Shown in pieces: positions 3,793 to 64,000 of a DNA stretch of 64,000 bases; position 1 is the first letter of the stretch, and every line of letters begins with the position of its first letter. Source of the stretch: an uncultured Clostridia bacterium (GTDB taxonomy: Bacteria > Bacillota_I > Bacilli_A > RF39 > UBA660); NCBI GenBank assembly GCA_948433435.1, contig CAOJDX010000004.1, positions 1,058 through 65,057 on the forward strand. The letters run 5' to 3'. A model generated the notes under the pieces. It made no database searches. It had not been told where the DNA came from and was given only the letters and a program-made list of their open reading frames with translations. The translations under genes were made by a program, and so were the position numbers.

Positions 3793-4584
3793 ATGAAAAA
3801 TAGAAGAGATTTGATCATATCAATATTTTTAATGATATTATCAGGAATAATGCTTATATTAGCTATATTTTATTATGATTTATCAGACAAAATAAAAGAA
3901 TATCATTATAGTGATAAAGAAGAATATAACAACGTTACAGAAGGAATATCCTTTATAAAATCACTTCCAATTCATCTTAATATAATTAATAAATATTTTT
4001 CAAATATGAATAATCTAAAACAAGAAGAGAAAGAAGAAATCTTACTAGCATATTCTCTCAAAAATAAATATAACTTATACGACTGCGGTCCAAGTAATAA
4101 TATCAAAAAGTATTTATGTATAGATAAAAGTAACTTACAAGCCAAAGAATTACAAGAAAAATTCAATATACGATTAACCTTTACAAGTTCAAATATTAAA
4201 CTATATGTAGATGATTATGGAATGTACACTGCTATAACAGATAAAAATTCATCACATTATAAAATCACTTTAGATAATACCAATAATAAATTATATAGAA
4301 TATATTCTGAATTTTCTCATTATAAACAAAATAAAGATATTTATACATTTTATCTATATCAAGGGTACTATAATGGAAATTGTCAAAAAAATACTGAATT
4401 AAAACTATATGACTTTATGAGTGGAAAAGTAGTATATAAAGATACTTGTAATGGAAATCAAGAGTTCACTGTTGATCCAGGGAAAAATATAAATAAATTA
4501 CAATTATACAAATATGAATTAAAAAAAGATCAAAATAATAAATTTTATTTATATGGATATAATCCAGTAAACAAAATGGAATAG
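3793..4584 (+). CDS. Hypothetical membrane-anchored protein (single N-terminal TM, Asn/Tyr-rich extracellular part)
   Basis: 263 aa ORF. RBS-like AGGAG 8 nt upstream. No recognisable domain. Confidence 0.4.
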   Translation: MKNRRDLIISIFLMILSGIMLILAIFYYDLSDKIKEYHYSDKEEYNNVTEGISFIKSLPIHLNIINKYFSNMNNLKQEEKEEILLAYSLKNKYNLYDCGPSNNIKKYLCIDKSNLQAKELQEKFNIRLTFTSSNIKLYVDDYGMYTAITDKNSSHYKITLDNTNNKLYRIYSEFSHYKQNKDIYTFYLYQGYYNGNCQKNTELKLYDFMSGKVVYKDTCNGNQEFTVDPGKNINKLQLYKYELKKDQNNKFYLYGYNPVNKME

Positions 4585-52940: not shown

Positions 52941-53609
52941 ATGATGAGTTGTAATGAATATAAAAATGATAAAATAAAAGAAATACCTAATAGAAGATGT
53001 TGTATTCCAACTTGTATATGTATAGGCCCAACAGGTGCAACGGGACCAACAGGACCAACAGGACCAACAGGTGTAACAGGTCCAACAGGTCCAGCAGGTA
53101 ATAATGCTAATTCAACAGCATGTTTTTGTGTAGACCAAATGAGAAATATTATTCAACAAATAATTACATTGTATCCAAATGACAATCTAATAATTGCCAT
53201 GGAAAGTGGGAATAATGTGAGTGGTCGACCAGGATCACTATTACCTGGACCTAACAATAATCCTAATTCAGGACTATTTCAATTAGTTAATAATCAGGGA
53301 GTACCAGAAGAAGCAGTATCTCTTTGCAGAATTGCTTCCATTACGATTACAAGTAGTACATACAATAATAATATTACATATTTACCACCACCTGTACCTC
53401 TACCAACAGATTGTGGCGCTAACTGTGAAGAGGCAATTCGTTCCTATCTTCCAGTAGGAACAACAGGAGTAGATATTAATGCTGGTGGACAGACCGTAGC
53501 ACAGGGGACAATTATACGTAGTGAATATGGAATGGTTGTAGTAGTAGGAAATAACGATAGTAATCCAGCTTTTGTTTCATTATGTAAAGCAGAAATTATT
53601 AATAAGTAA
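52941..53609 (+). CDS. Collagen-like triple-helix-repeat protein with Cys-rich N-terminus (BclA/exosporium-glycoprotein-like architecture)
   Basis: CCIPTCICIGPTGATGPTGPTGPTGVTGPTGPAG: eight G-x-T triplets. The roughly 150-aa C-terminal domain is unassigned. Confidence 0.55.
   Translation: MMSCNEYKNDKIKEIPNRRCCIPTCICIGPTGATGPTGPTGPTGVTGPTGPAGNNANSTACFCVDQMRNIIQQIITLYPNDNLIIAMESGNNVSGRPGSLLPGPNNNPNSGLFQLVNNQGVPEEAVSLCRIASITITSSTYNNNITYLPPPVPLPTDCGANCEEAIRSYLPVGTTGVDINAGGQTVAQGTIIRSEYGMVVVVGNNDSNPAFVSLCKAEIINK
53025..53100. repeat. Imperfect 9-bp tandem repeat (ggaccaaca)n encoding the GPT collagen-like triplets
   Basis: ccaacaggtgcaacgggaccaacaggaccaacaggaccaacaggtgtaacaggtccaacaggtccagcagg. 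Confidence 0.7.
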
Positions 53610-55896: not shown

Positions 55897-56091
55897 TCAG
55901 CTTCTTTTTTGATAAACATAAGCTTCAATTTTATCAACAATAAAATACATAAGATAAGAAATAACTCCAAGTATTACAACACCAGTAATAACTAAATTGA
56001 TATTAAATACCTGAGAACCATACATAATAAGATAACCAAGTCCACTTTTTGATACCAATAGCTCTCCCATAATAACCCCAATTATAGTCAT
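55897..56091 (-). pseudogene. 3' fragment (64 codons) of an ABC transporter permease (SsuC/TauC/NrtB-type). The upstream part is missing.
   Basis: GELLVSKSGLGYLI is a typical permease C-terminal motif. The open frame stops 6 codons upstream of the Met, exactly where the 154-bp inverted repeat begins. Confidence 0.55.
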
Positions 56092-56242
56092 GGTGCGAAA
56101 AATAGGTGTTTAAGGCATTTTTAGGACTAAACTTATAAGAATAGGAGTTATTATGGGAAAAACACTTACTTGTCCTTTTTGTAATAATAAAGATACTTTA
56201 AAAGTCGTTTATTGTTATAGGGGCTATAAAAAAAGAAATAAT
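56089..56242. repeat. Left 154-bp inverted repeat (IR-L)
   Basis: catggtgcgaaaaataggtgtttaaggcattttta...ggggctataaaaaaagaaataat. This is the reverse complement of 59218..59371 with a single mismatch. It includes the RBS and first 30 codons of the 56153 ORF. Confidence 0.9.
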
Positions 56243-56791
56243 GATGATATTAGTAATTTAATAAAAGATGGTACAATATATAGAAATGAAAAACCTAGAT
56301 TTGAAAAATATGATTTTGATGGTGAAAAGATAACTGCATCTTTATATAATAAATATTGTCCTAATTGTGATAGATATTTTCACTCTATTGGTAAAATGGC
56401 AGTCATTGATATAGATAAAGTTACATTTATTTATTCATTAGAAAAACAGATATTCAGATATGATTTTGATTTTTCAAATAATAATAGTGCAAAATATTCA
56501 TATAAACAAAACTATACTAGTGTAGATAAAGATATTCTATTAAATGAAACAGAAAGATTTAATATACTAAAAGGTATAAAAGAATCAAAAATGAATTTTT
56601 GGGACAAAGAATATAATTATAGTGATTCATTTAGTTATAATTGGATAATAAAATTAGAATATCATAATGGGTTAAGTGAATGCTATTATGGTTACGATCA
56701 AGTTTCTAGTAATTGGGATTTATTTATATCTGGGTTTAAAGTAATTATTTATAAATATGATAAAAATAAATTAATAGATAAAATTGTGTAA
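56153..56791 (+). CDS. Hypothetical protein with an N-terminal Zn-ribbon (CPFC...CPNC)
   Basis: 212 aa. RBS AGGAG 7 nt upstream. The 5' end lies inside IR-L. Confidence 0.45.
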   Translation: MGKTLTCPFCNNKDTLKVVYCYRGYKKRNNDDISNLIKDGTIYRNEKPRFEKYDFDGEKITASLYNKYCPNCDRYFHSIGKMAVIDIDKVTFIYSLEKQIFRYDFDFSNNNSAKYSYKQNYTSVDKDILLNETERFNILKGIKESKMNFWDKEYNYSDSFSYNWIIKLEYHNGLSECYYGYDQVSSNWDLFISGFKVIIYKYDKNKLIDKIV

Positions 56792-57119
56792 TGATTTGAC
56801 AATCGTTAGTAAGGGAGTTACCATTCAAGCAACTGGAGGTCATTGCATGGATACATTTGATAGAGTATATAAGGAAAAAGAGAGAAATACTATAAAATAT
56901 TTCCATACTATATTATTATCAAAGTTGTTGCTTTTAAATTATGAATTTTCTAACCATGAATATAATGGTACAACTGGTGAAGATGTCTTTAAAATATTAC
57001 AAAAAAAGATTAATTATAGTGAAAAAGAAAAGCAAGATATTATTGATAATGCAATTATGCTATTAAAAATAAATGGTAAAACAGTAACAGATTTTGAAAA
57101 AATAGAATTTGAAAAATAA
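56784..57119 (+). CDS. Hypothetical protein
   Basis: 111 aa. Start overlaps the upstream stop (ATGTGTAATGA), suggesting coupling. Confidence 0.35.
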   Translation: MCNDLTIVSKGVTIQATGGHCMDTFDRVYKEKERNTIKYFHTILLSKLLLLNYEFSNHEYNGTTGEDVFKILQKKINYSEKEKQDIIDNAIMLLKINGKTVTDFEKIEFEK

Positions 57120-57231
57120 TTCTTTTTTTCATTAACTACTATATAAATAAAAGTTAAAAAATGTTATAATGTATCTAACAGATAAATAGTAAGTTATCGC
57201 TGAGATTAAAAATAAAAAGGAGAATTAAAAT

Positions 57232-57684
57232 ATGGTACATTTAGTATATTGTGATGATAAATCAAAAGAATTAAATAAGATTTTAGATGGTAGTAAAACA
57301 ATGATTATAAGAGGTGCAGCAGGAAGAAAAATACCACATAGCAGAGTATTTAAAGATGAGATACTTTATTTTATGGAAAAAGGAACAAAAAAGATAACAG
57401 CAAAGGCAGTTGTAAAAGATGTTCAAAACTATGTAAAATTAAGTGATGAAGAAATAACAAAAACTATTGAAGATAATAATAATCAATTACAGTTAACTGA
57501 TAAGCAAAAAGAAAGATGGCACAAAAAATGCTTATGTCTAGTTGAATTTACAAATGTAGAAGAAATTACAGCATTAGATTTTGACCATCAAGGAAATATG
57601 GACGATTGGTTAATTATTGAAAAAATAGAAGATGTAGTTGTAGGTACAAGTATTCCTTACAACTATGAAAAATCAAGATTTTAG
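57232..57684 (+). CDS. ASCH/PUA-like domain protein (tentative)
   Basis: ILDGSKTMIIRG resembles the ASCH GxKxxExR segment. 150 aa, RBS AAGGAG upstream. Confidence 0.4.
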   Translation: MVHLVYCDDKSKELNKILDGSKTMIIRGAAGRKIPHSRVFKDEILYFMEKGTKKITAKAVVKDVQNYVKLSDEEITKTIEDNNNQLQLTDKQKERWHKKCLCLVEFTNVEEITALDFDHQGNMDDWLIIEKIEDVVVGTSIPYNYEKSRF

Positions 57685-57696
57685 GAGTAAAATAAT

Positions 57697-58412
57697 ATGG
57701 CAATGTGGAATCCGTGGCAAGGGTGTAAAAAATGTAGTGATGGTTGTTTACATTGCTATATTCATAAAGGCGATTCAAAAAGAAATGTCGATACAAATGA
57801 TATAGTAAAAACAAAAGACTTTGAAAAACCAATAGAAAAATTAAAAAATGGTAATTATAAAATGAAATCTGGAATTGTTTATTTATGTTTTTCTACTGAT
57901 TTTCTAATAGAAGAAGCAGATAAGTGGAGAAATGAATGTTGGAAAATGATTAAAGAAAGACAGGACTGTACTTTTTTGTTTCTAACAAAAAGAATTGATA
58001 GATTTATGAAATGTATTCCAGATGACTGGGAAGATGGATACGATAATGTAGTTGTATGTTGCACTATTGAAAATCAAAAAATGCAGATTATAAATTATCG
58101 ATATTTAAAGATTTGCCAATAAAACATAAATGTATAACAGCACAACCATTATTAGAAAAAATAGACATTGAAAAATATTTCGATAATATTGAATTAGTTG
58201 TAGTTGGTGGAGAATCTGATATAAATGCTAGGATATTTAATTATGACTGGGCATTAGATATTAGAGAACAATGTATAAGAAAGAATGTTAATTTTGAGTT
58301 TAGACAATGTGGAACTTATACCATAAAAGATGGAAAACAATATAAAATTCAAACAAAAGATTTGTGTAAACAAGCAAAATTAGCCAATATTGATTATAAA
58401 GGCAATCGCTAA
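57697..58412 (+). pseudogene. Gp37/Gp68 (DUF5131) family radical-SAM-like protein, split by a frameshift in an A-run near 58071-58086
   Basis: N-terminus MAMWNPWQGCKKCSDGCLHCY carries a CxxxCxxC cluster. The six-frame ORFs 57697..58122 and 58113..58412 are adjacent frames of one gene. The second frame is open from 58071 and reads ...NADYKLSIFKDLPIKHK. Confidence 0.55.
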
Positions 58413-58439
58413 ATTACAATTTGAAAGTGAGATGTAATT

Positions 58440-58583
58440 ATGGATAAGAAAAAAATTATGAATTGGTTAATAGCAATCATAGTGGCTATTGTGTATTTAA
58501 CAGTAAGTCTTATATTTGATATATGGGCATTCTCTTGGCTTATATGGGTTGCTTATGCAATTTATAGATTTATCGCAAAATAG
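58440..58583 (+). CDS. Possible 47-aa small membrane protein
   Basis: MDKKKIMNWLIAIIVAIVYLTVSLIFDIWAFSWLIWVAYAIYRFIAK, below the ORF-track size cut-off. Confidence 0.3.
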   Translation: MDKKKIMNWLIAIIVAIVYLTVSLIFDIWAFSWLIWVAYAIYRFIAK

Positions 58584-58612
58584 AAAAAATTACAATTTAG
58601 AATGGAGCAAGT

Positions 58613-59236
58613 ATGAAAGAATTTTTGGAAAAAATTAGAATTCCTGATAGAAGTCTAAAAATAAGTAGGAAAATATTAAATACAAGTTCAATATTTTTAT
58701 TAGGAATAATATTGGGGATATTTTCTAAATGGCTAGATAATTTAAGCATTGATGATACAATATGGTGGAAACATATATTTGGAATATTAGATTTAAGAAA
58801 TGTATTTTCTTTGTTTGGAATATGGATCTTTATTGCTGCTACCATTTCAGTATTTAGTAAGACACCATTAAGAGCAAGTTTGAATGTATTTTTGTTTTTT
58901 GTAGGTATGACAGTAAGTTACCATTTATATACAATTTATTTTAGTGGTTTTAATCCTAAAAACTATATGATGATTTGGTATGGAATAACTATGATAACAC
59001 CAATACTTGCCTTTATTTGTTGGTATGCAAAGGGAAAAGAAAAAATATCAATTATTATTAGTAGCATAATCCTTACTATAATGTTAATATCATCTTTTAG
59101 TATAGGAGTTGGGTATTTTTATTTTAAAAGTATAATTGATACTATTTTGTTTATAGGAACAATATTAGTGTTATATGTAAATCCTAAAAATAGTGTTTAT
59201 AGTTTGTTAATAGCATTATTATTTCTTTTTTTATAG
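58613..59236 (+). CDS. Hypothetical polytopic membrane protein
   Basis: 207 aa, about 6 TM. The 3' end runs into IR-R. Confidence 0.45.
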   Translation: MKEFLEKIRIPDRSLKISRKILNTSSIFLLGIILGIFSKWLDNLSIDDTIWWKHIFGILDLRNVFSLFGIWIFIAATISVFSKTPLRASLNVFLFFVGMTVSYHLYTIYFSGFNPKNYMMIWYGITMITPILAFICWYAKGKEKISIIISSIILTIMLISSFSIGVGYFYFKSIIDTILFIGTILVLYVNPKNSVYSLLIALLFLFL

Positions 59237-59371
59237 CCCCTATAACAATAAACGACTTTTAAAGTATCTTTATTATTACAAAAAGGACAAGTAAGTGTTT
59301 TTCCCATAATAACTCCTATTCTTATAAGTTTAGTCCTAAAAATGCCTTAAACACCTATTTTTCACACCATG
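59218..59371. repeat. Right 154-bp inverted repeat (IR-R)
   Basis: Reverse complement equals IR-L with 1 mismatch (t/c). Carries an inverted copy of the RBS plus 30 codons (MGKTLTCPFCNNKDTLKVVYCYRGYKKRNN) that runs into a stop after 6 further codons. Confidence 0.9.
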
Positions 59372-59527
59372 TCATTAAGTCCGATGTAAGACATACAGGG
59401 AAAATCACTTCATAGTATCTTTTTTTTAAGAGAAGAACTTAAGCAATTCTATATTGCATTAAAGAATAAGAAGTAAAGTTATTTAAATAGAAATTTGTGA
59501 TATAATTAAATTGAAAGAAGGGCTATT

Positions 59528-59984
59528 ATGATTGATATCCATTCACATACCACATATTCTGATGATAGTTTTAGTGTAGGAAAACTTTTAAGGGAAGTAC
59601 AAAAAATTGGTTTAAGCTTATTATCAATAACAGATCATAATACTGTACAAGCATATTATGAACTACAAAATTCTGATATAAGAAATGAATTTGATGGGAA
59701 AATACTACCTGGAATTGAAATAACCACAACATATAAAGGTGAAACAATAGAAGTACTGGGATACGGCTTTTACAAAAGAACATGAAGATTATTTAGTAAA
59801 AATATGTGAAGAGAAAAAACTCTATATGAGCGGTGGTAGTGATTTCCATGGAACTAGAAAAACAAACCATAATCTAGGAACTGGAAATGGTAATTTATAT
59901 ATTAGTGAAAATATAGTCAAAAAATGGATTGATAGATATTTCCCCAGTTTTGAGAGTGTTGAAAAGAAAAAAGTAATGAGATAA
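59528..59984 (+). pseudogene. PHP-domain phosphoesterase, split by a +1 frameshift in a T-run at about 59768-59771
   Basis: MIDIHSHTTYSDDS PHP N-terminus. The 59528..59785 ORF stops at ...LGYGFYKRT*. The next frame continues TKEHEDYLVKICEEKKLYMSGGSDFHGT... to 59984. Confidence 0.55.
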
Positions 59985-60003
59985 TAATTAAAAGAGGTTA
60001 GAA

Positions 60004-61509
60004 ATGAATAATTTTTATATGAACATAAAACAGAACTTAAATTATAATAATCATATAAGAGAAATAATAAACGATTTCAATGAACTAAGTGATAATGAAA
60101 TCAAATCGTTATTTGACGATGATGAAATAGATTTTAATTGGAAAAGGGCTATTGCAGAATTTTGTGATAAGCGTATTATACAATTACCCTTTAATATATT
60201 TGCGAGTGTCTTATTTTATCTTGAAAATCCATATTTATTTGCTAGTAATTATAAAAATAGAATAAATACCTTATCCTTTGAAGAATTAGTAAGCTTAATT
60301 TATGATGTTAATCTAGATGCTGATTGTTTGGTAGAAATAACTAAAATGGAAGTTTTTAAAAAATATTTAAAAGAGGAAAAAGAACATCATCTTGGTACAA
60401 AATTACAAAGCTTTGTAATATTAAAGGAATTATATTTAAATAATTACGATATAAAACAGTTAAATTCTATAGGAATAAAAATTATAAATTTATTAGAAAT
60501 TTCACAGAATTATACAGAAGATATAAGAATTTTGATAGATGCTTATATGGAAAAAATAATTGAAAAAGATCAAGAAATAAACTTTGACAGTGATATTAAT
60601 GCAATAGGCATAAAGATGATGAACTATTACTATAAAAATCATAAAAAATTAAGTAATAAATTAATGGAATTTTACATTAGATTCCGTTTAAAAGACTTAA
60701 ATCTTCAAAATTGTTGTCAGAGGATAATTATTAGTAAAGATAATGAAGATAATGAAGATACCTGTGGCAGGTATCATGAATTAACAGGTACATTAGAAAT
60801 ATTTAGTAATTATTTAACAAAAAGATTAAGGGAAATTTTTAATAGGCTTAATTTTAACAACGAACATATGATAAATGACTTTATCAATTTGTCAGAATTA
60901 GAAATACTATCCCATGAATTAGGACATATAGTTAGATATAAAGAGTGGAAGGAATTTGAAACTAAAGAAGAAACTTTAAAAGATAATAAGTCATTGTATT
61001 ATTGGTATAAAGACCATTTATTACACCTTCTGCTAGGAGACAAAAAATATTATCAATTACATGAGAATTTTATAGAAGAAAATAGGGCGGATTTATTTTC
61101 TATATTTGATAGTAGTATTCAAATTAATAAATATTTTAAAGATTCATTTTCCAAAAAACAATTACAAAATTTATGTAAAAAAGATGCAGGGGATATTATA
61201 AAACTTTACACAAAACATAATGAAAGTAGTGAAAGTACAATAATAACTCCAATGCAAAAATTTGATGAATTTTTTAGTATTTACTTCCCCATAGAAGAAA
61301 AATATTTAATTAGACAGGATGAAAACTCAAATAATATTATGAATAATTTACTATTAGGTGATGAAATACCCAAATATGTTTTAACAGAATTTACCAAAAT
61401 AGCCAGTGGTGAAACCATTACAGATGATCTATATAAAGAAACATTAAAAATAATAGATGATGCCCAATACTGTAATTTAGAAGAAGTAAGAAAGCAAAGA
61501 AAAATATAG
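60004..61509 (+). CDS. Hypothetical protein with a HExxH motif (possible Zn-metallopeptidase-like)
   Basis: 501 aa. ILSHELGHIV is the only recognisable motif. Confidence 0.4.
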   Translation: MNNFYMNIKQNLNYNNHIREIINDFNELSDNEIKSLFDDDEIDFNWKRAIAEFCDKRIIQLPFNIFASVLFYLENPYLFASNYKNRINTLSFEELVSLIYDVNLDADCLVEITKMEVFKKYLKEEKEHHLGTKLQSFVILKELYLNNYDIKQLNSIGIKIINLLEISQNYTEDIRILIDAYMEKIIEKDQEINFDSDINAIGIKMMNYYYKNHKKLSNKLMEFYIRFRLKDLNLQNCCQRIIISKDNEDNEDTCGRYHELTGTLEIFSNYLTKRLREIFNRLNFNNEHMINDFINLSELEILSHELGHIVRYKEWKEFETKEETLKDNKSLYYWYKDHLLHLLLGDKKYYQLHENFIEENRADLFSIFDSSIQINKYFKDSFSKKQLQNLCKKDAGDIIKLYTKHNESSESTIITPMQKFDEFFSIYFPIEEKYLIRQDENSNNIMNNLLLGDEIPKYVLTEFTKIASGETITDDLYKETLKIIDDAQYCNLEEVRKQRKI

Positions 61510-61517
61510 GAGAGATT

Positions 61518-62351
61518 ATGATTATAAAAGAGATTATAAGTAAAGAATATTTAACTAAGTCTAAGCTTCCAGCAAGTGATTATGTGATCAATCCATATAT
61601 TGGTTGTCCCCATGGGTGCAAATATTGTTATGCATCATTCATGAAAAGATTTACAGGGCATACAGAAGATTGGGGAACCTTTACAGATATTAAAAGAAGT
61701 CAAAAGAAAATTAATTTAAAAAAAATAAGTAAAAAAAAGATCTTTTTATCTTCAGTAACAGATTGCTATAATCCTTTAGAAGAAAAATATAGATTGACTA
61801 GGAAAATCTTAGAACAGTTAGTTACCTCGGATTGTGAGTTATCTATTTCTACAAAATCAAAGTTAATCTTAAGAGATATTGATCTATTAAAAAAAATCAA
61901 AAATCTAACTGTAAGTATGTCCATTAATACACTAGATGAAGATTTTAGAAGAGATATGGATAATACATGTACAATAGAAGAAAGATTAAATACCTTGAAA
62001 GAATTACATGATAATGGTATTTACACTGTTTTATTTATGTCGCCTATATTTCCTTTTATTACAGAATGGAAAAAAATAATAGAAAGTTCTAAAGACTATA
62101 TAGATGAATATTGGTTTGAAAATCTTAATTTAAGAGGTCAATATAAAACTTATATAATGAACTATATTAAGGGAAAATATCCTCAATATTATGATAACTA
62201 TGTTAATATTTATATCAAAAAAGATAAAAAATATTGGAATGAATTAGCTAATGAAATCAATAATTATTGTGAAAAGAACGATATAAAATATATTAATTAT
62301 TTTTATCATGAAGAATTAGTAAAAAACAAGAAAGAAAAACAAAAAATATAG
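61518..62351 (+). CDS. Radical SAM protein of the SplB-like / 'DNA repair photolyase' (COG1533) type
   Basis: INPYIGCPHGCKYCYA: the CxxxCxxC cluster in a context typical of spore-photoproduct-lyase-like radical SAM enzymes. Confidence 0.55.
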   Translation: MIIKEIISKEYLTKSKLPASDYVINPYIGCPHGCKYCYASFMKRFTGHTEDWGTFTDIKRSQKKINLKKISKKKIFLSSVTDCYNPLEEKYRLTRKILEQLVTSDCELSISTKSKLILRDIDLLKKIKNLTVSMSINTLDEDFRRDMDNTCTIEERLNTLKELHDNGIYTVLFMSPIFPFITEWKKIIESSKDYIDEYWFENLNLRGQYKTYIMNYIKGKYPQYYDNYVNIYIKKDKKYWNELANEINNYCEKNDIKYINYFYHEELVKNKKEKQKI

Positions 62352-62515
62352 ATTGAAAATTATATATTTAACGAATAAAAAAAATTTAATCTTATTGTAA
62401 TTATTTATATCCCAAAATAGACTAATATATATCCAGACTTGAAAGAAAAATTAGAAGTTATTCTTTCTTTTTTTATCATTTTAAATCATTTTGTACTATC
62501 TAAGTATTATAAAAC

Positions 62516-62544
62516 TTGACAAAATTAAACAAAAGTAGTATAAT
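62516..62544 (+). promoter_or_regulatory. Consensus sigma-A promoter
   Basis: TTGACA, 17-nt spacer, TATAAT, 30 nt before the 62574 start. Confidence 0.65.
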
Positions 62545-62573
62545 ATGGACAATTTAATAAGGGGGGAAATAGT

Positions 62574-64000
62574 ATGACAAAGAAAATAAGAATAACATTA
62601 ATGGTTATAACTTTTTGTGGTATCATTTCGATTATAGGAGGAGTGAAGTTACAAACAAAATCAAATCAAACAAATATGATTGAAAATGAACCTTATGGAT
62701 ATTTAACATATAATACAGAACAATTTCGTTATTTATCAGATATTGAATATATCAAAGATCAAACATCTGTAGGTTGGGGAAGTATTCAATTTGATAAGAA
62801 CATTAATACAGGTAGTAATAATGGATTAATAACAGTTAATATAAATGGAGAGAAAAAATCCTTTATGAAAGGAGTACTTGCTCATGCAACTTCAACAGTT
62901 GTTTATGATATCAGCTCATATCACTATGATTATTTTACAGCATATTTAGGAGTAGATGCTAGTGTAGGAACAAACGGAAATGGGGTAAAATTTGCTATTT
63001 ATACTTCAAAAGATGGAGAAAATTGGGACTTAAAAACAGATGAAAAACCACCAGTATTAAAAGGAACTAGTGAATCAATTTTCGTAAAGATCGACATCAA
63101 AGATGTAAAATATTTAAAATTATATGCTCATAACAATGGAAATGATTCTTCTGATCATGCTGTTTATGCAGATGCCAAACTAATAAAAGAAGGATATGTA
63201 GAAGATACTAGTACAGTAGACTTTATAAAAACCGTAGAAGATTATGACAAAATAATTAAAAGTAAAAATTTATCAGATCAATTAACAACAAATGAATTAA
63301 CTATTCTTCAAAGAGAATTTGTAAGTAACGTGGGATATGACTTATTACAATCTTTTGTTAAATATAGTGATGAAAATAAAGAAGCTATTTCATGGCTAAT
63401 GAATGATGTAGAAAATTTAAGATTATATATCGTTGGAGGAAAACCAGAAGGAAGCTACATTAATTCAATTCGTGTATTAACAGAATTACATAGTAAGTAT
63501 AAAGAAGACTTTGAAAATAAAAATGTAACCAAATATGGAACAGTTTTAGGGGATCTATATAAGAAAATGGCCATTACATTATCTCTAACTCATTCCAAAC
63601 AAGTAGCATTATGGATGCAACCAAGTGCAAAAGAAAATCAATCAGATGCTGTAACTCGTTATGCTCTTTATAAACAGATGCATGCCAATGGAAACTTTTT
63701 AGTATCAGAAAGTAAAAATATAGATATAGCAAAATGGTTTGAAAGTTATAATGTAGAAGAAATGCGCTTTGTATTAAATAATATCATTGATGATGAAGAA
63801 ATTTTATGGTTAAATGAATATACTCAAAAACAAATAGATGCTCATCCAAATCAAGTGTGGAGCTATTTAACACCTCATCCATATATGGCTTATGTATGGC
63901 CTGATTATAGCAAAAAAGAATTTCATGATCCAGCAAGAAAAAGTTACTGGGATGAAAAATTTGATGGTATTTTCTCTAAATATGGAGTAACTTATAGTAC
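62574..64000 (+). CDS. Secreted protein with an N-terminal NPCBM-like carbohydrate-binding module followed by a large domain; partial, continues beyond the window
   Basis: Signal/TM segment, then VGWGSIQFDKN...KSFMKGVLAHATSTVVYDIS...YLGVDAS...KFAIYTSKDGENW (NPCBM/NEW2-like). No stop before 64000. Confidence 0.55.
   Translation, partial: MTKKIRITLMVITFCGIISIIGGVKLQTKSNQTNMIENEPYGYLTYNTEQFRYLSDIEYIKDQTSVGWGSIQFDKNINTGSNNGLITVNINGEKKSFMKGVLAHATSTVVYDISSYHYDYFTAYLGVDASVGTNGNGVKFAIYTSKDGENWDLKTDEKPPVLKGTSESIFVKIDIKDVKYLKLYAHNNGNDSSDHAVYADAKLIKEGYVEDTSTVDFIKTVEDYDKIIKSKNLSDQLTTNELTILQREFVSNVGYDLLQSFVKYSDENKEAISWLMNDVENLRLYIVGGKPEGSYINSIRVLTELHSKYKEDFENKNVTKYGTVLGDLYKKMAITLSLTHSKQVALWMQPSAKENQSDAVTRYALYKQMHANGNFLVSESKNIDIAKWFESYNVEEMRFVLNNIIDDEEILWLNEYTQKQIDAHPNQVWSYLTPHPYMAYVWPDYSKKEFHDPARKSYWDEKFDGIFSKYGVTYS

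What the first reader, a model, noticed from the sequence alone, without database searches (positions are those of the whole stretch)
56089..59371. 3.3-kb segment bounded by 154-bp near-perfect inverted repeats, inserted at the break point of an ABC permease gene
Positions 56089-56242 and 59218-59371 are reverse complements with a single mismatch (aligned by hand). Each repeat carries an RBS plus the first 30 codons of the Zn-ribbon ORF. IR-L reads into a 212-aa protein. IR-R reads, on the opposite strand, into a 36-aa dead end. The left boundary coincides to the base with the point where the minus-strand permease fragment (55897..56091) loses its upstream reading frame. The other half of the permease is not on the far side, and there is no direct-repeat target duplication. 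The repeats are far longer than IS or invertase sites, and no recombinase or transposase lies inside. This could be a DNA-inversion switch, a foldback-type mobile cassette, or the scar of an inverted duplication. Near-identity implies the event is recent or maintained by gene conversion.
Basis: seen in the sequence. Interest (0 to 1): 0.7.

Follow-up and report, generated by a model that had tools for sequence, protein, structure and literature searches.

The report
Inverted end-copy inside a serine-integrase element
The 154-bp inverted repeats are real, but they are not the ends of a 3.3-kb cassette: the left one is the true end of a 12-kb mobile element that a large serine recombinase (encoded just beyond the window) inserted into a transporter gene. 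The right one is an upside-down extra copy of that element's joined ends, most likely a rearrangement scar that lets the DNA between the repeats flip.

Summary
Window 56089-56242 and 59218-59371 are reverse complements with 153 of 154 bases matching; the mismatch is at 56096/59364.

The interpretation needs re-framing.
- The permease gene is split by an element of about 11.97 kb (56085 to window-equivalent 68053), not by 3.3 kb.
- Overlapping metagenome contigs show a 450-aa large serine recombinase (LSR) at the far end, directly followed by the missing 207-aa N-terminal part of the permease.
- IR-L is the element's left end (attL).
- Intact homologues and 25 uninterrupted metagenome genes give the empty site, with a 7-bp common core CCAATTA.
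- The same element (99.6% identical) sits at the same codons in a second species whose flank is only 75% identical.

Just outside IR-R lie 12 bases and then a 21-nt copy (20/21) of the element's right end. IR-R plus this flank is therefore an inverted attP-like joint ("attP*") with the true arms but a different 12-nt centre. Its inner junction falls in a 6-nt microhomology and truncates a membrane-protein gene of a cargo module that many other mobile elements carry.

Assemblies show the window orientation eight times and the flipped one three times. The flipped junctions exchanged inside the repeat, not at the att cores. Most likely reading: an inverted-duplication scar that homologous recombination can flip. 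Modest interest.

The parts
55897..56091 (-). C-terminal 64-aa fragment of a NitT/TauT-type ABC permease (host gene, left flank of the element).
   Evidence: BPD_transp_1 profile positions 122-178 of 184. Intact 265-aa homologues read ...NISMSLIGVIMGELLV... across the break.
56078..56084 (.). CCAATTA, the 7-bp core shared by attB and attP. The crossover region of attL.
   Evidence: Comparison of attL, attR and 25 uninterrupted genes carrying CCAATTAAACTCAT. In a second host the last flank mismatch is at 56077.
56089..56242 (+). IR-L: the left terminus of the element. It holds the P' arm of attL, a 64-nt leader with RBS, and the first 30 codons of the first gene.
56153..56791 (+). 212-aa Cys-rich (CPFC...CPNC) protein of unknown function; the first gene of the element.
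   Evidence: Small family of 15 clusters. The N-terminal 26 aa are highly conserved and the repeat ends in a variable linker. No informative Pfam, NCBIfam, PHROG or fold match.
56784..57119 (+). 111-aa ORF (called as 90 aa from 56847 in other assemblies), function unknown.
57181..59223 (+). Promiscuous cargo module: 150-aa gene, DUF5131 gene, 47-aa gene and membrane-protein gene.
   Evidence: More than 99% identical in many elements that carry other integrases or Mob genes. The homology ends inside IR-R.
57697..58412 (+). DUF5131 gene, frameshifted here into 141-aa and 99-aa ORFs. The window lacks one A after 58076.
   Evidence: Pfam PF07505 on both halves. Intact at 238 aa elsewhere.
58613..59236 (+). 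Membrane-protein gene truncated by IR-R. It is 207 aa here; the native form is 212 aa ending ...LLLAFAFRILV.
59218..59223 (.). ATTATT: perfect 6-nt microhomology at the inner junction of the inverted patch, within a 16/18 imperfect match.
   Evidence: Alignment of the window, the native module and the reverse complement of IR-L.
59218..59371 (-). IR-R: inverted copy of the element's left terminus. It reads into the 36-aa dead-end ORF 59197-59307.
59372..59383 (-). Variant 12-nt centre CGGACTTAATGA of the attP-like joint. The true attP has TCCAATTATAGT; 5/12 positions are the same and the central TTA is kept.
59384..59404 (-). P* arm: a 21-nt copy (20/21) of the element's right terminus TTCTCCCTGTATGTCTTACAT.
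   Evidence: The same motif lies at attR of sister elements whose recombinases are 76% and 81% identical.
59528..59984 (+). PHP-domain gene remnant, split into 85-aa and 52-aa ORFs with the middle missing.
60004..62351 (+). 501-aa ORF of unknown function and a 277-aa radical SAM protein; both are cargo of the same element.
   Evidence: TIGR04470 'radical SAM mobile pair protein B', E=4e-100 but below the curated cut-off.
62574..64000 (+). 5' part of a 1251-aa NPCBM / F5_F8_type_C surface protein gene. It runs off the window. The element continues to window-equivalent 68053.
   Evidence: L012 overlaps window 59169-64000 at 100%. It then carries the recombinase gene (L012 7492-8844, window-equivalent 66660-68012), attR, and the permease N-terminal fragment (L012 8872-9495, minus strand).

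Best explanation
The 3.3-kb repeat-bounded segment is the left quarter of an integrative element of about 11.97 kb. A large serine recombinase (LSR) placed this element into the conserved SMSLIG|VIMGE codons of a NitT/TauT-family ABC permease gene.

IR-L is the element's genuine left end. It holds the P' half of the attachment site, the leader and the first 30 codons of the first gene.

IR-R is a secondary, inverted patch of about 190 bp copied from the joined ends of the element or of a close sibling. Read on the minus strand it consists of right-end arm, 12-nt centre, left-end arm, leader and 30 codons. The patch was spliced in by illegitimate or template-switch recombination at a 6-nt microhomology in the 3' end of a membrane-protein gene.

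The patch has no demonstrable function. Its consequences are:
- a truncated cargo gene;
- a 36-aa dead-end ORF;
- an extra attP-like site;
- a pair of 154-bp repeats across which general (RecA-type) homologous recombination can flip the 2,975-bp interior.

Shown: the repeat, the element borders, the recombinase, attB/attP/attL/attR, the attP-like flank, the microhomology junction, and the mobility of the element between two hosts.

Inferred: the way the patch arose, that flipping really occurs, and that it is driven by homology rather than by the recombinase.
For: Recombinase and missing permease half.
- Contigs that overlap the window at 100% continue into a 450-aa protein with Resolvase and Zn_ribbon_recom domains. 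It is immediately followed by the 207-aa N-terminal permease fragment, then the ABC ATPase and the NMT1 binding-protein gene.
- The recombinase matches phrog_95 'integrase' at 1e-112 and XisF/CcrB models.

Empty site.
- Intact homologues are 265 aa and read straight across the break.
- 25 metagenome contigs hold the uninterrupted DNA ...TCTCCCATAATNACNCCAATTAAACTCAT....
- attB and attP share CCAATTA.
- The TCTCCC motif lies 9 nt from that core in attB and 15 nt from it in attP. This is the inward shift expected for serine-integrase sites (PMC3783163).

Mobility.
- In L032, from another species, the flank has 35 mismatches in 142 nt and the element 5 in 1145 nt. The switch falls at 56077/56078.
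- Sister recombinases (76% and 81% identical) sit beside the same permease fragment and keep the arm motif TTYTCCCTRTATG.

attP-like flank of IR-R.
- Outside IR-R lies TTTTCCCTGTATGTCTTACAT + CGGACTTAATGA + CATGGTG...
- That is the right-end arm (20/21) at exactly the 12-nt spacing of the reconstructed attP.

Cargo module.
- The module 57181-59223 is more than 99% identical in many other elements.
- Its native sequence diverges from the window within ATTATT at 59218-59223.

Orientation.
- Window-type junctions: window, L001, L011, L012, L032, L069, L074, L075.
- Flipped junctions: L002, L004, L007.
- In every contig the C/T mismatch and the att cores stay with the outer flank.
- No hybrid att junction appears in about 45 contigs.
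Against: - The 12-nt centre of the patch differs from the true attP centre at 7 of 12 positions, while the arms differ at 2 of 175. A simple copy of this element's own circle junction does not explain that; a sibling template or later replacement has to be assumed.
- The outer junction of the patch could not be defined.
- The flipped orientation rests on one low-coverage paired-end contig (L004, coverage 4.6) and two k=31 contigs. A k=31 contig can cross a 154-bp repeat only after two graph branches are lost. Such contigs are then of either type at random, so flipping is not proven.
- The conserved arms and central TTA leave open that the extra site is used by the recombinase.
- No excised circle or empty site was seen in this species.
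Confidence: 0.7

Rival explanations
1. The extra attP-like joint is a working second attachment site. After excision the circle would carry two oppositely oriented attP sites with different centres, and the recombinase could integrate through either. This would give a permuted and inverted insertion, or access to a second target. Alternatively the site titrates or regulates the recombinase. On this view the long repeat persists because the half-site and the first gene's start are needed at both places.
For: - Both arms are kept almost perfectly (20/21 and 153/154). The right-end copy stops about where a 25-bp half-site ends.
- The spacing is exactly 12 nt and the central TTA is kept.
- The arm motif is conserved across recombinases only 76-81% identical, so it is a true binding motif.
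- The centre differs far more than drift allows, which suggests replacement rather than decay.
Against: - No junction predicted for integration through the extra site was seen in about 45 contigs. Every permease flank carries the normal core and the C variant.
- The patch truncates a gene at a microhomology, which looks accidental.
- Neighbouring genes are decaying: DUF5131 is frameshifted and PHP is split.
- Serine integrases are not known to pair attP with attP or attL (PMC3783163).
Confidence: 0.12
2. A programmed DNA-inversion switch: a site-specific recombinase flips the 2,975-bp interior to change expression. For example, it could couple or uncouple the cargo operon from the downstream PHP-to-recombinase genes.
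For: - Both orientations appear among assemblies.
- In the window orientation all element genes point the same way, so flipping would break possible read-through into the recombinase end.
Against: - There is no invertase in or next to the segment.
- The repeats are 154 bp, not short recombinase sites.
- Both arms carry the same gene start and there is only one full-length partner, so no alternative product arises.
- The flipped contigs keep both att cores and the C/T marker unchanged, so exchange took place inside the repeat.
- The promoter scan is at chance level.
- The evidence for the flipped form is weak.
Confidence: 0.07
3. An autonomous or foldback-type mobile cassette with 154-bp terminal inverted repeats that inserted into the permease.
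For: Long terminal inverted repeats whose left end lies exactly at the gene break.
Against: - The missing permease half is 8.7 kb beyond IR-R, next to the recombinase.
- The window's copy holds no transposase and has no target duplication. Across the fetched contigs the repeat occurs only in these two contexts, and a 39-nt probe from it found a single copy in one contig of the species-representative genome collection and none in the JGI or viral collections.
- The interior is a mosaic of the element's own first genes and a module shared with other elements.
Confidence: 0.03
4. An assembly artefact: a collapsed or chimeric join created the inverted copy.
For: Inverted repeats are a known source of misjoins, and the source appears to be a metagenome-type assembly.
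Against: Independent samples and assemblers reproduce both copies, both flanks and the fixed C/T difference. k=31 contigs break exactly 30 nt past that difference, as expected if both copies are present.
Confidence: 0.02

Closest known systems
Non-phage gene-intervening elements moved by large serine recombinases (gin in Bacillus cereus gerE, PMC5595907; also skin and SPbeta of Bacillus subtilis, PMC5499854)
   Same: - A compact element with no phage structural genes splits a coding sequence at a short common core (9 bp in gin, 7 bp here).
- It carries a large serine recombinase at one end.
- Precise excision would restore an intact ORF (265 aa here).
   Different: - The interrupted gene is an ABC permease, not a sporulation gene.
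- No excision, directionality factor or developmental control could be shown.
- Those elements are not reported to carry an internal inverted copy of their joined ends.
Serine-integrase attachment-site architecture (Listeria A118/LI integrase, PMC3783163)
   Same: - The half-site is about 25 bp.
- The outer recognition motif lies closer to the centre in attB than in attP (6 nt here, 5 bp in the model).
- The common core is short and there is no target duplication.
   Different: - The central dinucleotide is not determined here.
- The element holds a third site, attP-like with a different centre, which the model gives no role.
Clostridial serine-recombinase transposons Tn4451 (TnpX) and Tn5397 (TndX); from my own knowledge, not tested here
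   Same: Small to medium elements of AT-rich Firmicutes that excise as circles and insert through a large serine recombinase encoded at one end.
   Different: - Those insert at many sites with a GA centre and carry resistance or conjugation genes.
- This one has one conserved target and cargo of unknown function.
Flip-flop of a segment between long inverted repeats by general homologous recombination (for example between inverted IS or rRNA copies in bacteria, or the plastid inverted repeat); established knowledge
   Same: - The repeats are long (154 bp) and nearly identical.
- No dedicated enzyme is nearby.
- Exchange took place anywhere inside the repeat, so outer markers stay in place.
   Different: Here the repeat is much shorter and arose as a patch inside a mobile element. 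Flipping itself rests on weak assembly evidence.

Membership tests
Integrative element moved by a large serine recombinase | A recombinase with an N-terminal resolvase catalytic domain and a C-terminal recombinase/zinc-ribbon region, encoded at one end of the element. | tested here: met
   450 aa, PF00239 + PF13408. phrog_95 integrase 1e-112. XisF and CcrB models 1e-40 to 1e-43, below their equivalog cut-offs. The stop codon lies 33 nt before the junction. The gene lies outside the window (window-equivalent 66660-68012).
Integrative element moved by a large serine recombinase | Insertion at one specific attB with a short common core and no target-site duplication. | tested here: met
   7-bp CCAATTA shared by attL and attR. 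25 uninterrupted genes carry the reconstructed attB. Sister recombinases sit at the same codons.
Integrative element moved by a large serine recombinase | attP is longer than attB, with the outer recognition motif displaced about 5 bp toward the centre in attB. | tested here: met
   TCTCCC lies 15 nt from the core in attP and 9 nt from it in attB, compared with PMC3783163.
Integrative element moved by a large serine recombinase | Mobility: presence/absence polymorphism or the same element in different genomes. | tested here: met
   Element 99.6% identical versus flank 75% identical in L032; L069 is likewise. No empty site was found in the window's own species: the best intact permease is 83% identical.
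Integrative element moved by a large serine recombinase | Excision to a circle carrying attP, and a directionality factor. | not testable with these tools
   No circle junction appears among about 45 contigs. The 39/59-aa ORF upstream of the recombinase has no family match.
Programmed DNA-inversion switch (Hin/Gin, Fim, RecV types, shufflons) | A dedicated invertase inside or next to the invertible segment. | tested here: not met
   No recombinase domain in any ORF between 55400 and 62400. The nearest is the integrase about 7.3 kb away.
Programmed DNA-inversion switch (Hin/Gin, Fim, RecV types, shufflons) | Short recombinase-specific inverted repeats with a fixed crossover point. | tested here: not met
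   The repeats are 154 bp. The flipped contigs exchanged somewhere inside repeat positions 9-154 and left both att cores intact.
Programmed DNA-inversion switch (Hin/Gin, Fim, RecV types, shufflons) | Inversion moves a promoter or swaps alternative gene ends. | tested here: not met
   Both arms carry the same leader and 30 codons. There is one 212-aa partner and one 36-aa dead end. Promoter-like sites are at chance level.
Programmed DNA-inversion switch (Hin/Gin, Fim, RecV types, shufflons) | Both orientations coexist in a population. | tested here: inconclusive
   Eight window-type versus three flipped junction contigs, from different samples. The flipped ones are low-coverage or k=31 contigs. 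No read data.
IS, composite or foldback transposon with terminal inverted repeats | Transposase inside, target-site duplication, several copies per genome. | tested here: not met
   No transposase in the window's copy. An IS110-family element is a separate, polymorphic insertion at 58416/58417 in other samples. No duplication. The repeat occurs in only two contexts.
Sporulation-type gene-intervening element (skin, gin, SPbeta) | It interrupts a sporulation gene and is excised in the mother cell to rebuild that gene. | tested here: not met
   The target is an ABC permease in an NMT1-ATPase-permease operon. In-frame restoration to 265 aa is predicted from sequence. Timing of excision is not testable.

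The most novel reading that the evidence does not exclude
The element deliberately carries two oppositely oriented attP sites that share their arms but differ in the 12-nt centre. The recombinase uses the inner one as well. This could allow integration in a permuted and inverted form or at a second target. It could also act, together with the homology-driven flip, to couple or uncouple the cargo operon from the recombinase genes. That would be a natural two-site serine-integrase element, which has not been described.
Probability: 0.1. Interest if true: 0.7.

Novelty: new variant of a known kind. Interest (0 to 1): 0.4.

Why it matters
For genome annotation: a long inverted repeat beside a broken gene can be one true end of a much larger integrase-borne element plus an internal copy of that end. 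The recombinase and the other gene half can lie outside the stretch inspected.

For recombinase biology: this locus gives a new serine integrase with attB, attP, attL and attR defined from natural sequence. The target is a highly conserved permease motif present in many gut Firmicutes. The locus also supplies a natural attP variant with identical arms and a different centre, a ready-made substrate for asking what the central 12 bp contribute to site choice.

If the inner site proved active, it would be the first natural element with two attP sites. If it is only a scar, it documents template-switch-type inverted duplication acting on an excised-circle junction.

Tried and rejected
- **Wider searches for the repeat.** A 39-nt piece gave one contig among species-representative genomes (L032). 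It gave nothing in JGI metagenomes or IMG/VR. Megablast of 56089-59600 gave nothing in the phage and plasmid collections.
- **RNA and signals.** Rfam found no family in the whole window. The promoter and terminator scan gave chance-level promoter hits and no terminator near the repeats.
- **An earlier misreading.** I first took L011's 226-aa membrane protein as a copy of the element without IR-R. BLAST showed that IR-R is present and that a 1-nt deletion in the A-run extends the ORF.
- **Recombinase-made inversion between attL and the inner site.** Rejected for the observed flipped contigs, because their junctions are not hybrid.
- **Patch as remnant of a second copy integrated at a pseudo-attB.** Rejected, because the two arms are adjacent as in attP rather than separated.
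- **Origin of the variant centre.** It is not the reverse complement, complement or reverse of the true centre. No other informative copy exists in the window or fetched loci.
- **A distinct flipped lineage.** SNP sharing among the flipped contigs was not informative.
- **Function of the 212-aa protein.** Pfam gives only a weak CpXC hit (E=0.009). NCBIfam and PHROGs give nothing. The AlphaFold2 model has pLDDT 69. The best solved-structure matches are Mago-nashi-like at E about 5e-3.
- **Organism.** No name could be obtained.

Full report
**1. The observation.**
The repeat is real. The repeat finder gives arms 56082-56252 and 59208-59378 (171 nt, 96%). Reading both strands shows a 154-nt repeat, 56089-56242 against the reverse complement of 59218-59371, with a single mismatch at 56096 (C) versus 59364 (T on the repeat strand). 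A 48-nt piece occurs exactly twice in the window and never in 100 shuffles. The interior is 2,975 bp.

IR-L leads into a 212-aa ORF (56153-56791). IR-R leads, on the other strand, into a 36-aa ORF (59197-59307). The 64-aa minus-strand ORF 55897-56091 is the C-terminal end of a binding-protein-dependent transport permease, and it begins in the first three bases of IR-L.

**2. What interrupts the permease.**
Exact-protein look-ups returned metagenome contigs that overlap the window at 99.7-100% identity and run past its end. L012 matches 59169-64000 without a mismatch. Beyond that point it carries:
- the rest of a 1251-aa NPCBM / F5_F8_type_C protein gene;
- a small ORF;
- a 450-aa protein with Resolvase and Zn_ribbon_recom domains (L012 7492-8844);
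- 27 nt later, on the other strand, a 207-aa BPD_transp_1 protein, followed by an ABC ATPase and an NMT1 binding protein.

The 450-aa protein matches phage/element serine integrases (phrog_95, 1e-112) and, below their cut-offs, the XisF and CcrA/B/C models. Its N-terminus (MKTKAVYVRVSTDSQ) has the usual catalytic-serine context; this is read from the sequence against general knowledge of the family.

The 207-aa fragment ends ...NISMSLIG-M-stop and the 64-aa fragment starts M-TIIG-VIMGE. A spliced 265-aa query finds thousands of permeases. The best intact ones are exactly 265 aa and read ...NISMSLIGVIMGELLV.... No intact copy above 83% identity exists in the database, whereas the split N-terminal fragment (P0024) was seen on 28 contigs. 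Every sampled member of this species therefore carries the insertion.

The permease is split by about 11.97 kb (56085 to window-equivalent 68053), not by 3.3 kb.

**3. The attachment sites.**
- attL reads ...CCCATAATAACC-CCAATTA-TAGTCATGGTGCGAAAAATAGG....
- attR reads ...TTCTCCCTGTATGTCTTACATT-CCAATTA-AACTCATAGAAATATTG....
- Joining the outer halves gives attB ...TCTCCCATAATAACC-CCAATTA-AACTCATAGAAAT....

A degenerate pattern for the uninterrupted codons found 25 metagenome contigs with exactly ...TCTCCCATAATNACNCCAATTAAACTCAT.... The TATAGT at attL (encoding the mimic TIIG) is therefore element DNA, and the common core is the 7-bp CCAATTA.

The motif TCTCCC lies 9 nt from the core in attB and 15 nt from it in attP. 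This is the inward displacement of the outer recognition motif that the structural model of serine integrases predicts (5 bp; half-site 25 bp; PMC3783163). The absence of a direct-repeat target duplication is what this enzyme family produces.

**4. The element moves.**
The only hit among species-representative genomes (L032, an 'uncultured Bacillales' MAG) has the same left junction. Left of 56078 it differs from the window at 35 of 142 positions, and the upstream genes are unrelated. Right of the junction it differs at 5 of 1145 positions. L069 shows the same pattern.

Recombinases 76% and 81% identical (P0125, P0124) also sit directly beside a 208-211-aa N-terminal permease fragment in other genomes. 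Their junctions keep the arm motif TTYTCCCTRTATG. This is a recombinase lineage specialised on one conserved permease motif.

**5. What IR-R really is.**
On the repeat strand, the sequence just outside IR-R reads TTTTCCCTGTATGTCTTACAT-CGGACTTAATGA-CATGGTGTGAAAA.... The first 21 nt match the element's right terminus at 20 of 21 positions and end at the same base as in attR. The next 12 nt fill exactly the space that TCCAATTATAGT fills in the reconstructed attP. IR-R follows.

IR-R plus its flank is therefore an inverted copy of the joined ends, an attP-like site that I call attP*. The arms differ from the true ones at 2 of 175 positions. The centre differs at 7 of 12 positions and keeps only the middle TTA. 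This contrast cannot be drift and remains unexplained. The centre is not a simple inversion or complement of the true one, and it has no other informative copy in the data.

**6. The inner junction.**
Window 57181-59223 holds the 150-aa gene, the DUF5131 gene, the 47-aa gene and a membrane-protein gene. This stretch is more than 99% identical to a module found in many elements that carry tyrosine integrases, other serine recombinases or Mob genes. In those elements the membrane protein has 212 aa and the DNA continues ...GCATTATTATT-AGCTTTTGC.... In the window it continues ...GCATTATTATT-TCTTTTTTTATAGCC..., which is the reverse complement of codons 30-24 of the 212-aa gene.

The switch lies within ATTATT (59218-59223), inside a 16/18 imperfect match between the two parents. 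This is the signature of an illegitimate or template-switch join. It truncates the membrane protein to 207 aa.

In the 212-aa protein family the first 26 residues are almost invariant. The repeat ends in the variable, A-rich linker that follows them. The outer junction beyond the right-end copy could not be fixed, because no relative of the PHP upstream region without the patch was found.

**7. Does the interior flip?**
Contigs that cross a whole repeat fall into four junction types.
- Window type, permease flank-IR(C)-212-aa gene: window, L001, L032, L069, L074, L075.
- Window type, membrane-gene end-IR(T)-PHP flank: window, L011, L012.
- Flipped type, PHP flank-IR(T)-212-aa gene: L002.
- Flipped type, membrane-gene end-IR(C)-permease flank: L004, L007.

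In all of them the C/T marker and the att cores stay with the outer flank. Any exchange therefore happened inside repeat positions 9-154. That is what homologous recombination gives and what recombination at the att centres would not give. No hybrid att junction and no circle junction occur in about 45 contigs.

Caveats apply. L002 and L007 are k=31 contigs. Such a contig can pass a 154-bp repeat only if two graph branches dropped out, and it is then of either type at random. Single-branch losses are visibly common in these data (L003, L006, L008, L018). Only L004, a paired-end metaSPAdes contig at 4.6-fold coverage, carries some weight. A sister sample of the same accession series (ERZ14864656, coverage about 5) gives two concordant window-type contigs. 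I put the chance that flipped molecules really exist at about one half. A perfect 146-bp inverted homology 3 kb apart is expected to recombine at low frequency in any recA-proficient cell (general knowledge).

**8. Function.**
Flipping leaves each arm where it is, so attL stays intact and the element stays excisable. Because both arms are the same, the relation of the interior genes to their upstream arm does not change. Only read-through out of the interior changes. In the window orientation all element genes are co-directional and transcription could run on into the PHP-to-recombinase genes. In the flipped state it would run into the permease remnant. There is no sequence evidence that this matters: promoter matches are at chance level and there is no Rfam hit.

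Several cargo genes are decaying. DUF5131 is frameshifted here but intact in L071/L072 and elsewhere. The PHP gene is split with its middle missing. The 501-aa ORF is split in L011/L033. The simplest reading is an accidental inverted duplication that is tolerated.

The 212-aa protein gave no functional lead. It belongs to a small family (15 clusters), the AlphaFold2 model has pLDDT 69, and there is only a weak Mago-nashi-like fold resemblance.

**9. Comparison with known systems.**
As a member, the element passes the tests for a large-serine-recombinase integrative element: enzyme, specific attB, short core, site geometry and mobility. Excision and a directionality factor are untested. It works like the non-phage gene-intervening element gin of Bacillus cereus (PMC5595907) and like skin/SPbeta, but its target is not a sporulation gene.

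It fails the defining tests for an invertase switch, a shufflon and a transposon with terminal repeats (see the table). A full-text search for natural elements with a second or internal attP found only engineered constructs. I therefore rate the inner inverted attP-like site as a new variant within a known kind, not a new kind.

**10. Verdict.**

Interest is moderate (0.4). The main value is a cleanly defined new integrase/att system, and a natural attP variant with an unexplained centre. About a 10% chance remains that the inner site is functional, which would be notable.

Noticed in passing
L037 1-9300 (sample DRR775634): In one sample a second element of about 8 kb splits the NMT1 substrate-binding gene of the same ABC operon. 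It carries a 520-aa serine recombinase, a 204-aa resolvase and a REP_ORF2-G2P replication protein. The operon seems to be a repeated landing place for integrase-borne elements.
   Followed up: no
L063-L065, just beyond the permease N-terminal fragment (e.g. L063 12387-21253): In hosts of the 76%-identical sister recombinase, a prophage-like element with its own 463-aa serine recombinase (plus DnaB_2, SSAP and HTH genes) lies directly next to the permease fragment.
   Followed up: no
window 58416/58417; L005, L006, L007, L011, L056: An IS110-family insertion sequence (400-aa DEDD transposase) is present at this point in several samples of this element, and at the same point of the module in an unrelated element. 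It is absent from the window.
   Followed up: partly
window 58411-58423 and 58587-58599; native module downstream of the membrane gene (e.g. L045 about 3815-3830): A 13-nt motif AAATTACAATTTR follows the DUF5131 gene, the 47-aa gene and (in other elements) the membrane-protein gene. Homology between different mobile elements breaks at these motifs, and the IS110 copy sits inside one. It may mark cassette borders or the IS target.
   Followed up: partly
L073 929-1451 (window-equivalent 57192 onward): In one sample the sequence after 57192 switches to GTGCGCCCAGAAAAGGG..., which looks like the 5' end of a group II intron inserted at the left border of the cargo module.
   Followed up: no
window 57697-58412: The DUF5131 gene is frameshifted in the window (one A missing after 58076). 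It is intact at 238 aa in L071/L072 copies of the same element and in all other elements.
   Followed up: yes
window 59528-59984 and 60004-61509: The PHP-domain gene survives only as 85-aa and 52-aa pieces. The 501-aa ORF is split 189+323 aa in L011 and L033. Cargo genes of the element are decaying in different strains.
   Followed up: partly
window 61518-62351 and 57697-58412: The 277-aa radical SAM protein matches TIGR04470 'radical SAM mobile pair protein B' (4e-100, below the cut-off). It also weakly matches DUF5131, the family of the frameshifted gene 3 kb upstream. The two may be a functional pair typical of mobile elements.
   Followed up: no
window 52941-53609: A collagen-like protein with GPT repeats (BclA-like) whose length varies between 206 and 222 aa among near-identical contigs. 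It is probably repeat-number polymorphic.
   Followed up: no
L011 5239-5300 (window-equivalent 59226): One sample has a 1-nt deletion in the A/T run at the inner end of IR-R. This lengthens the membrane-protein ORF from 207 to 226 aa by reading further into the repeat.
   Followed up: yes
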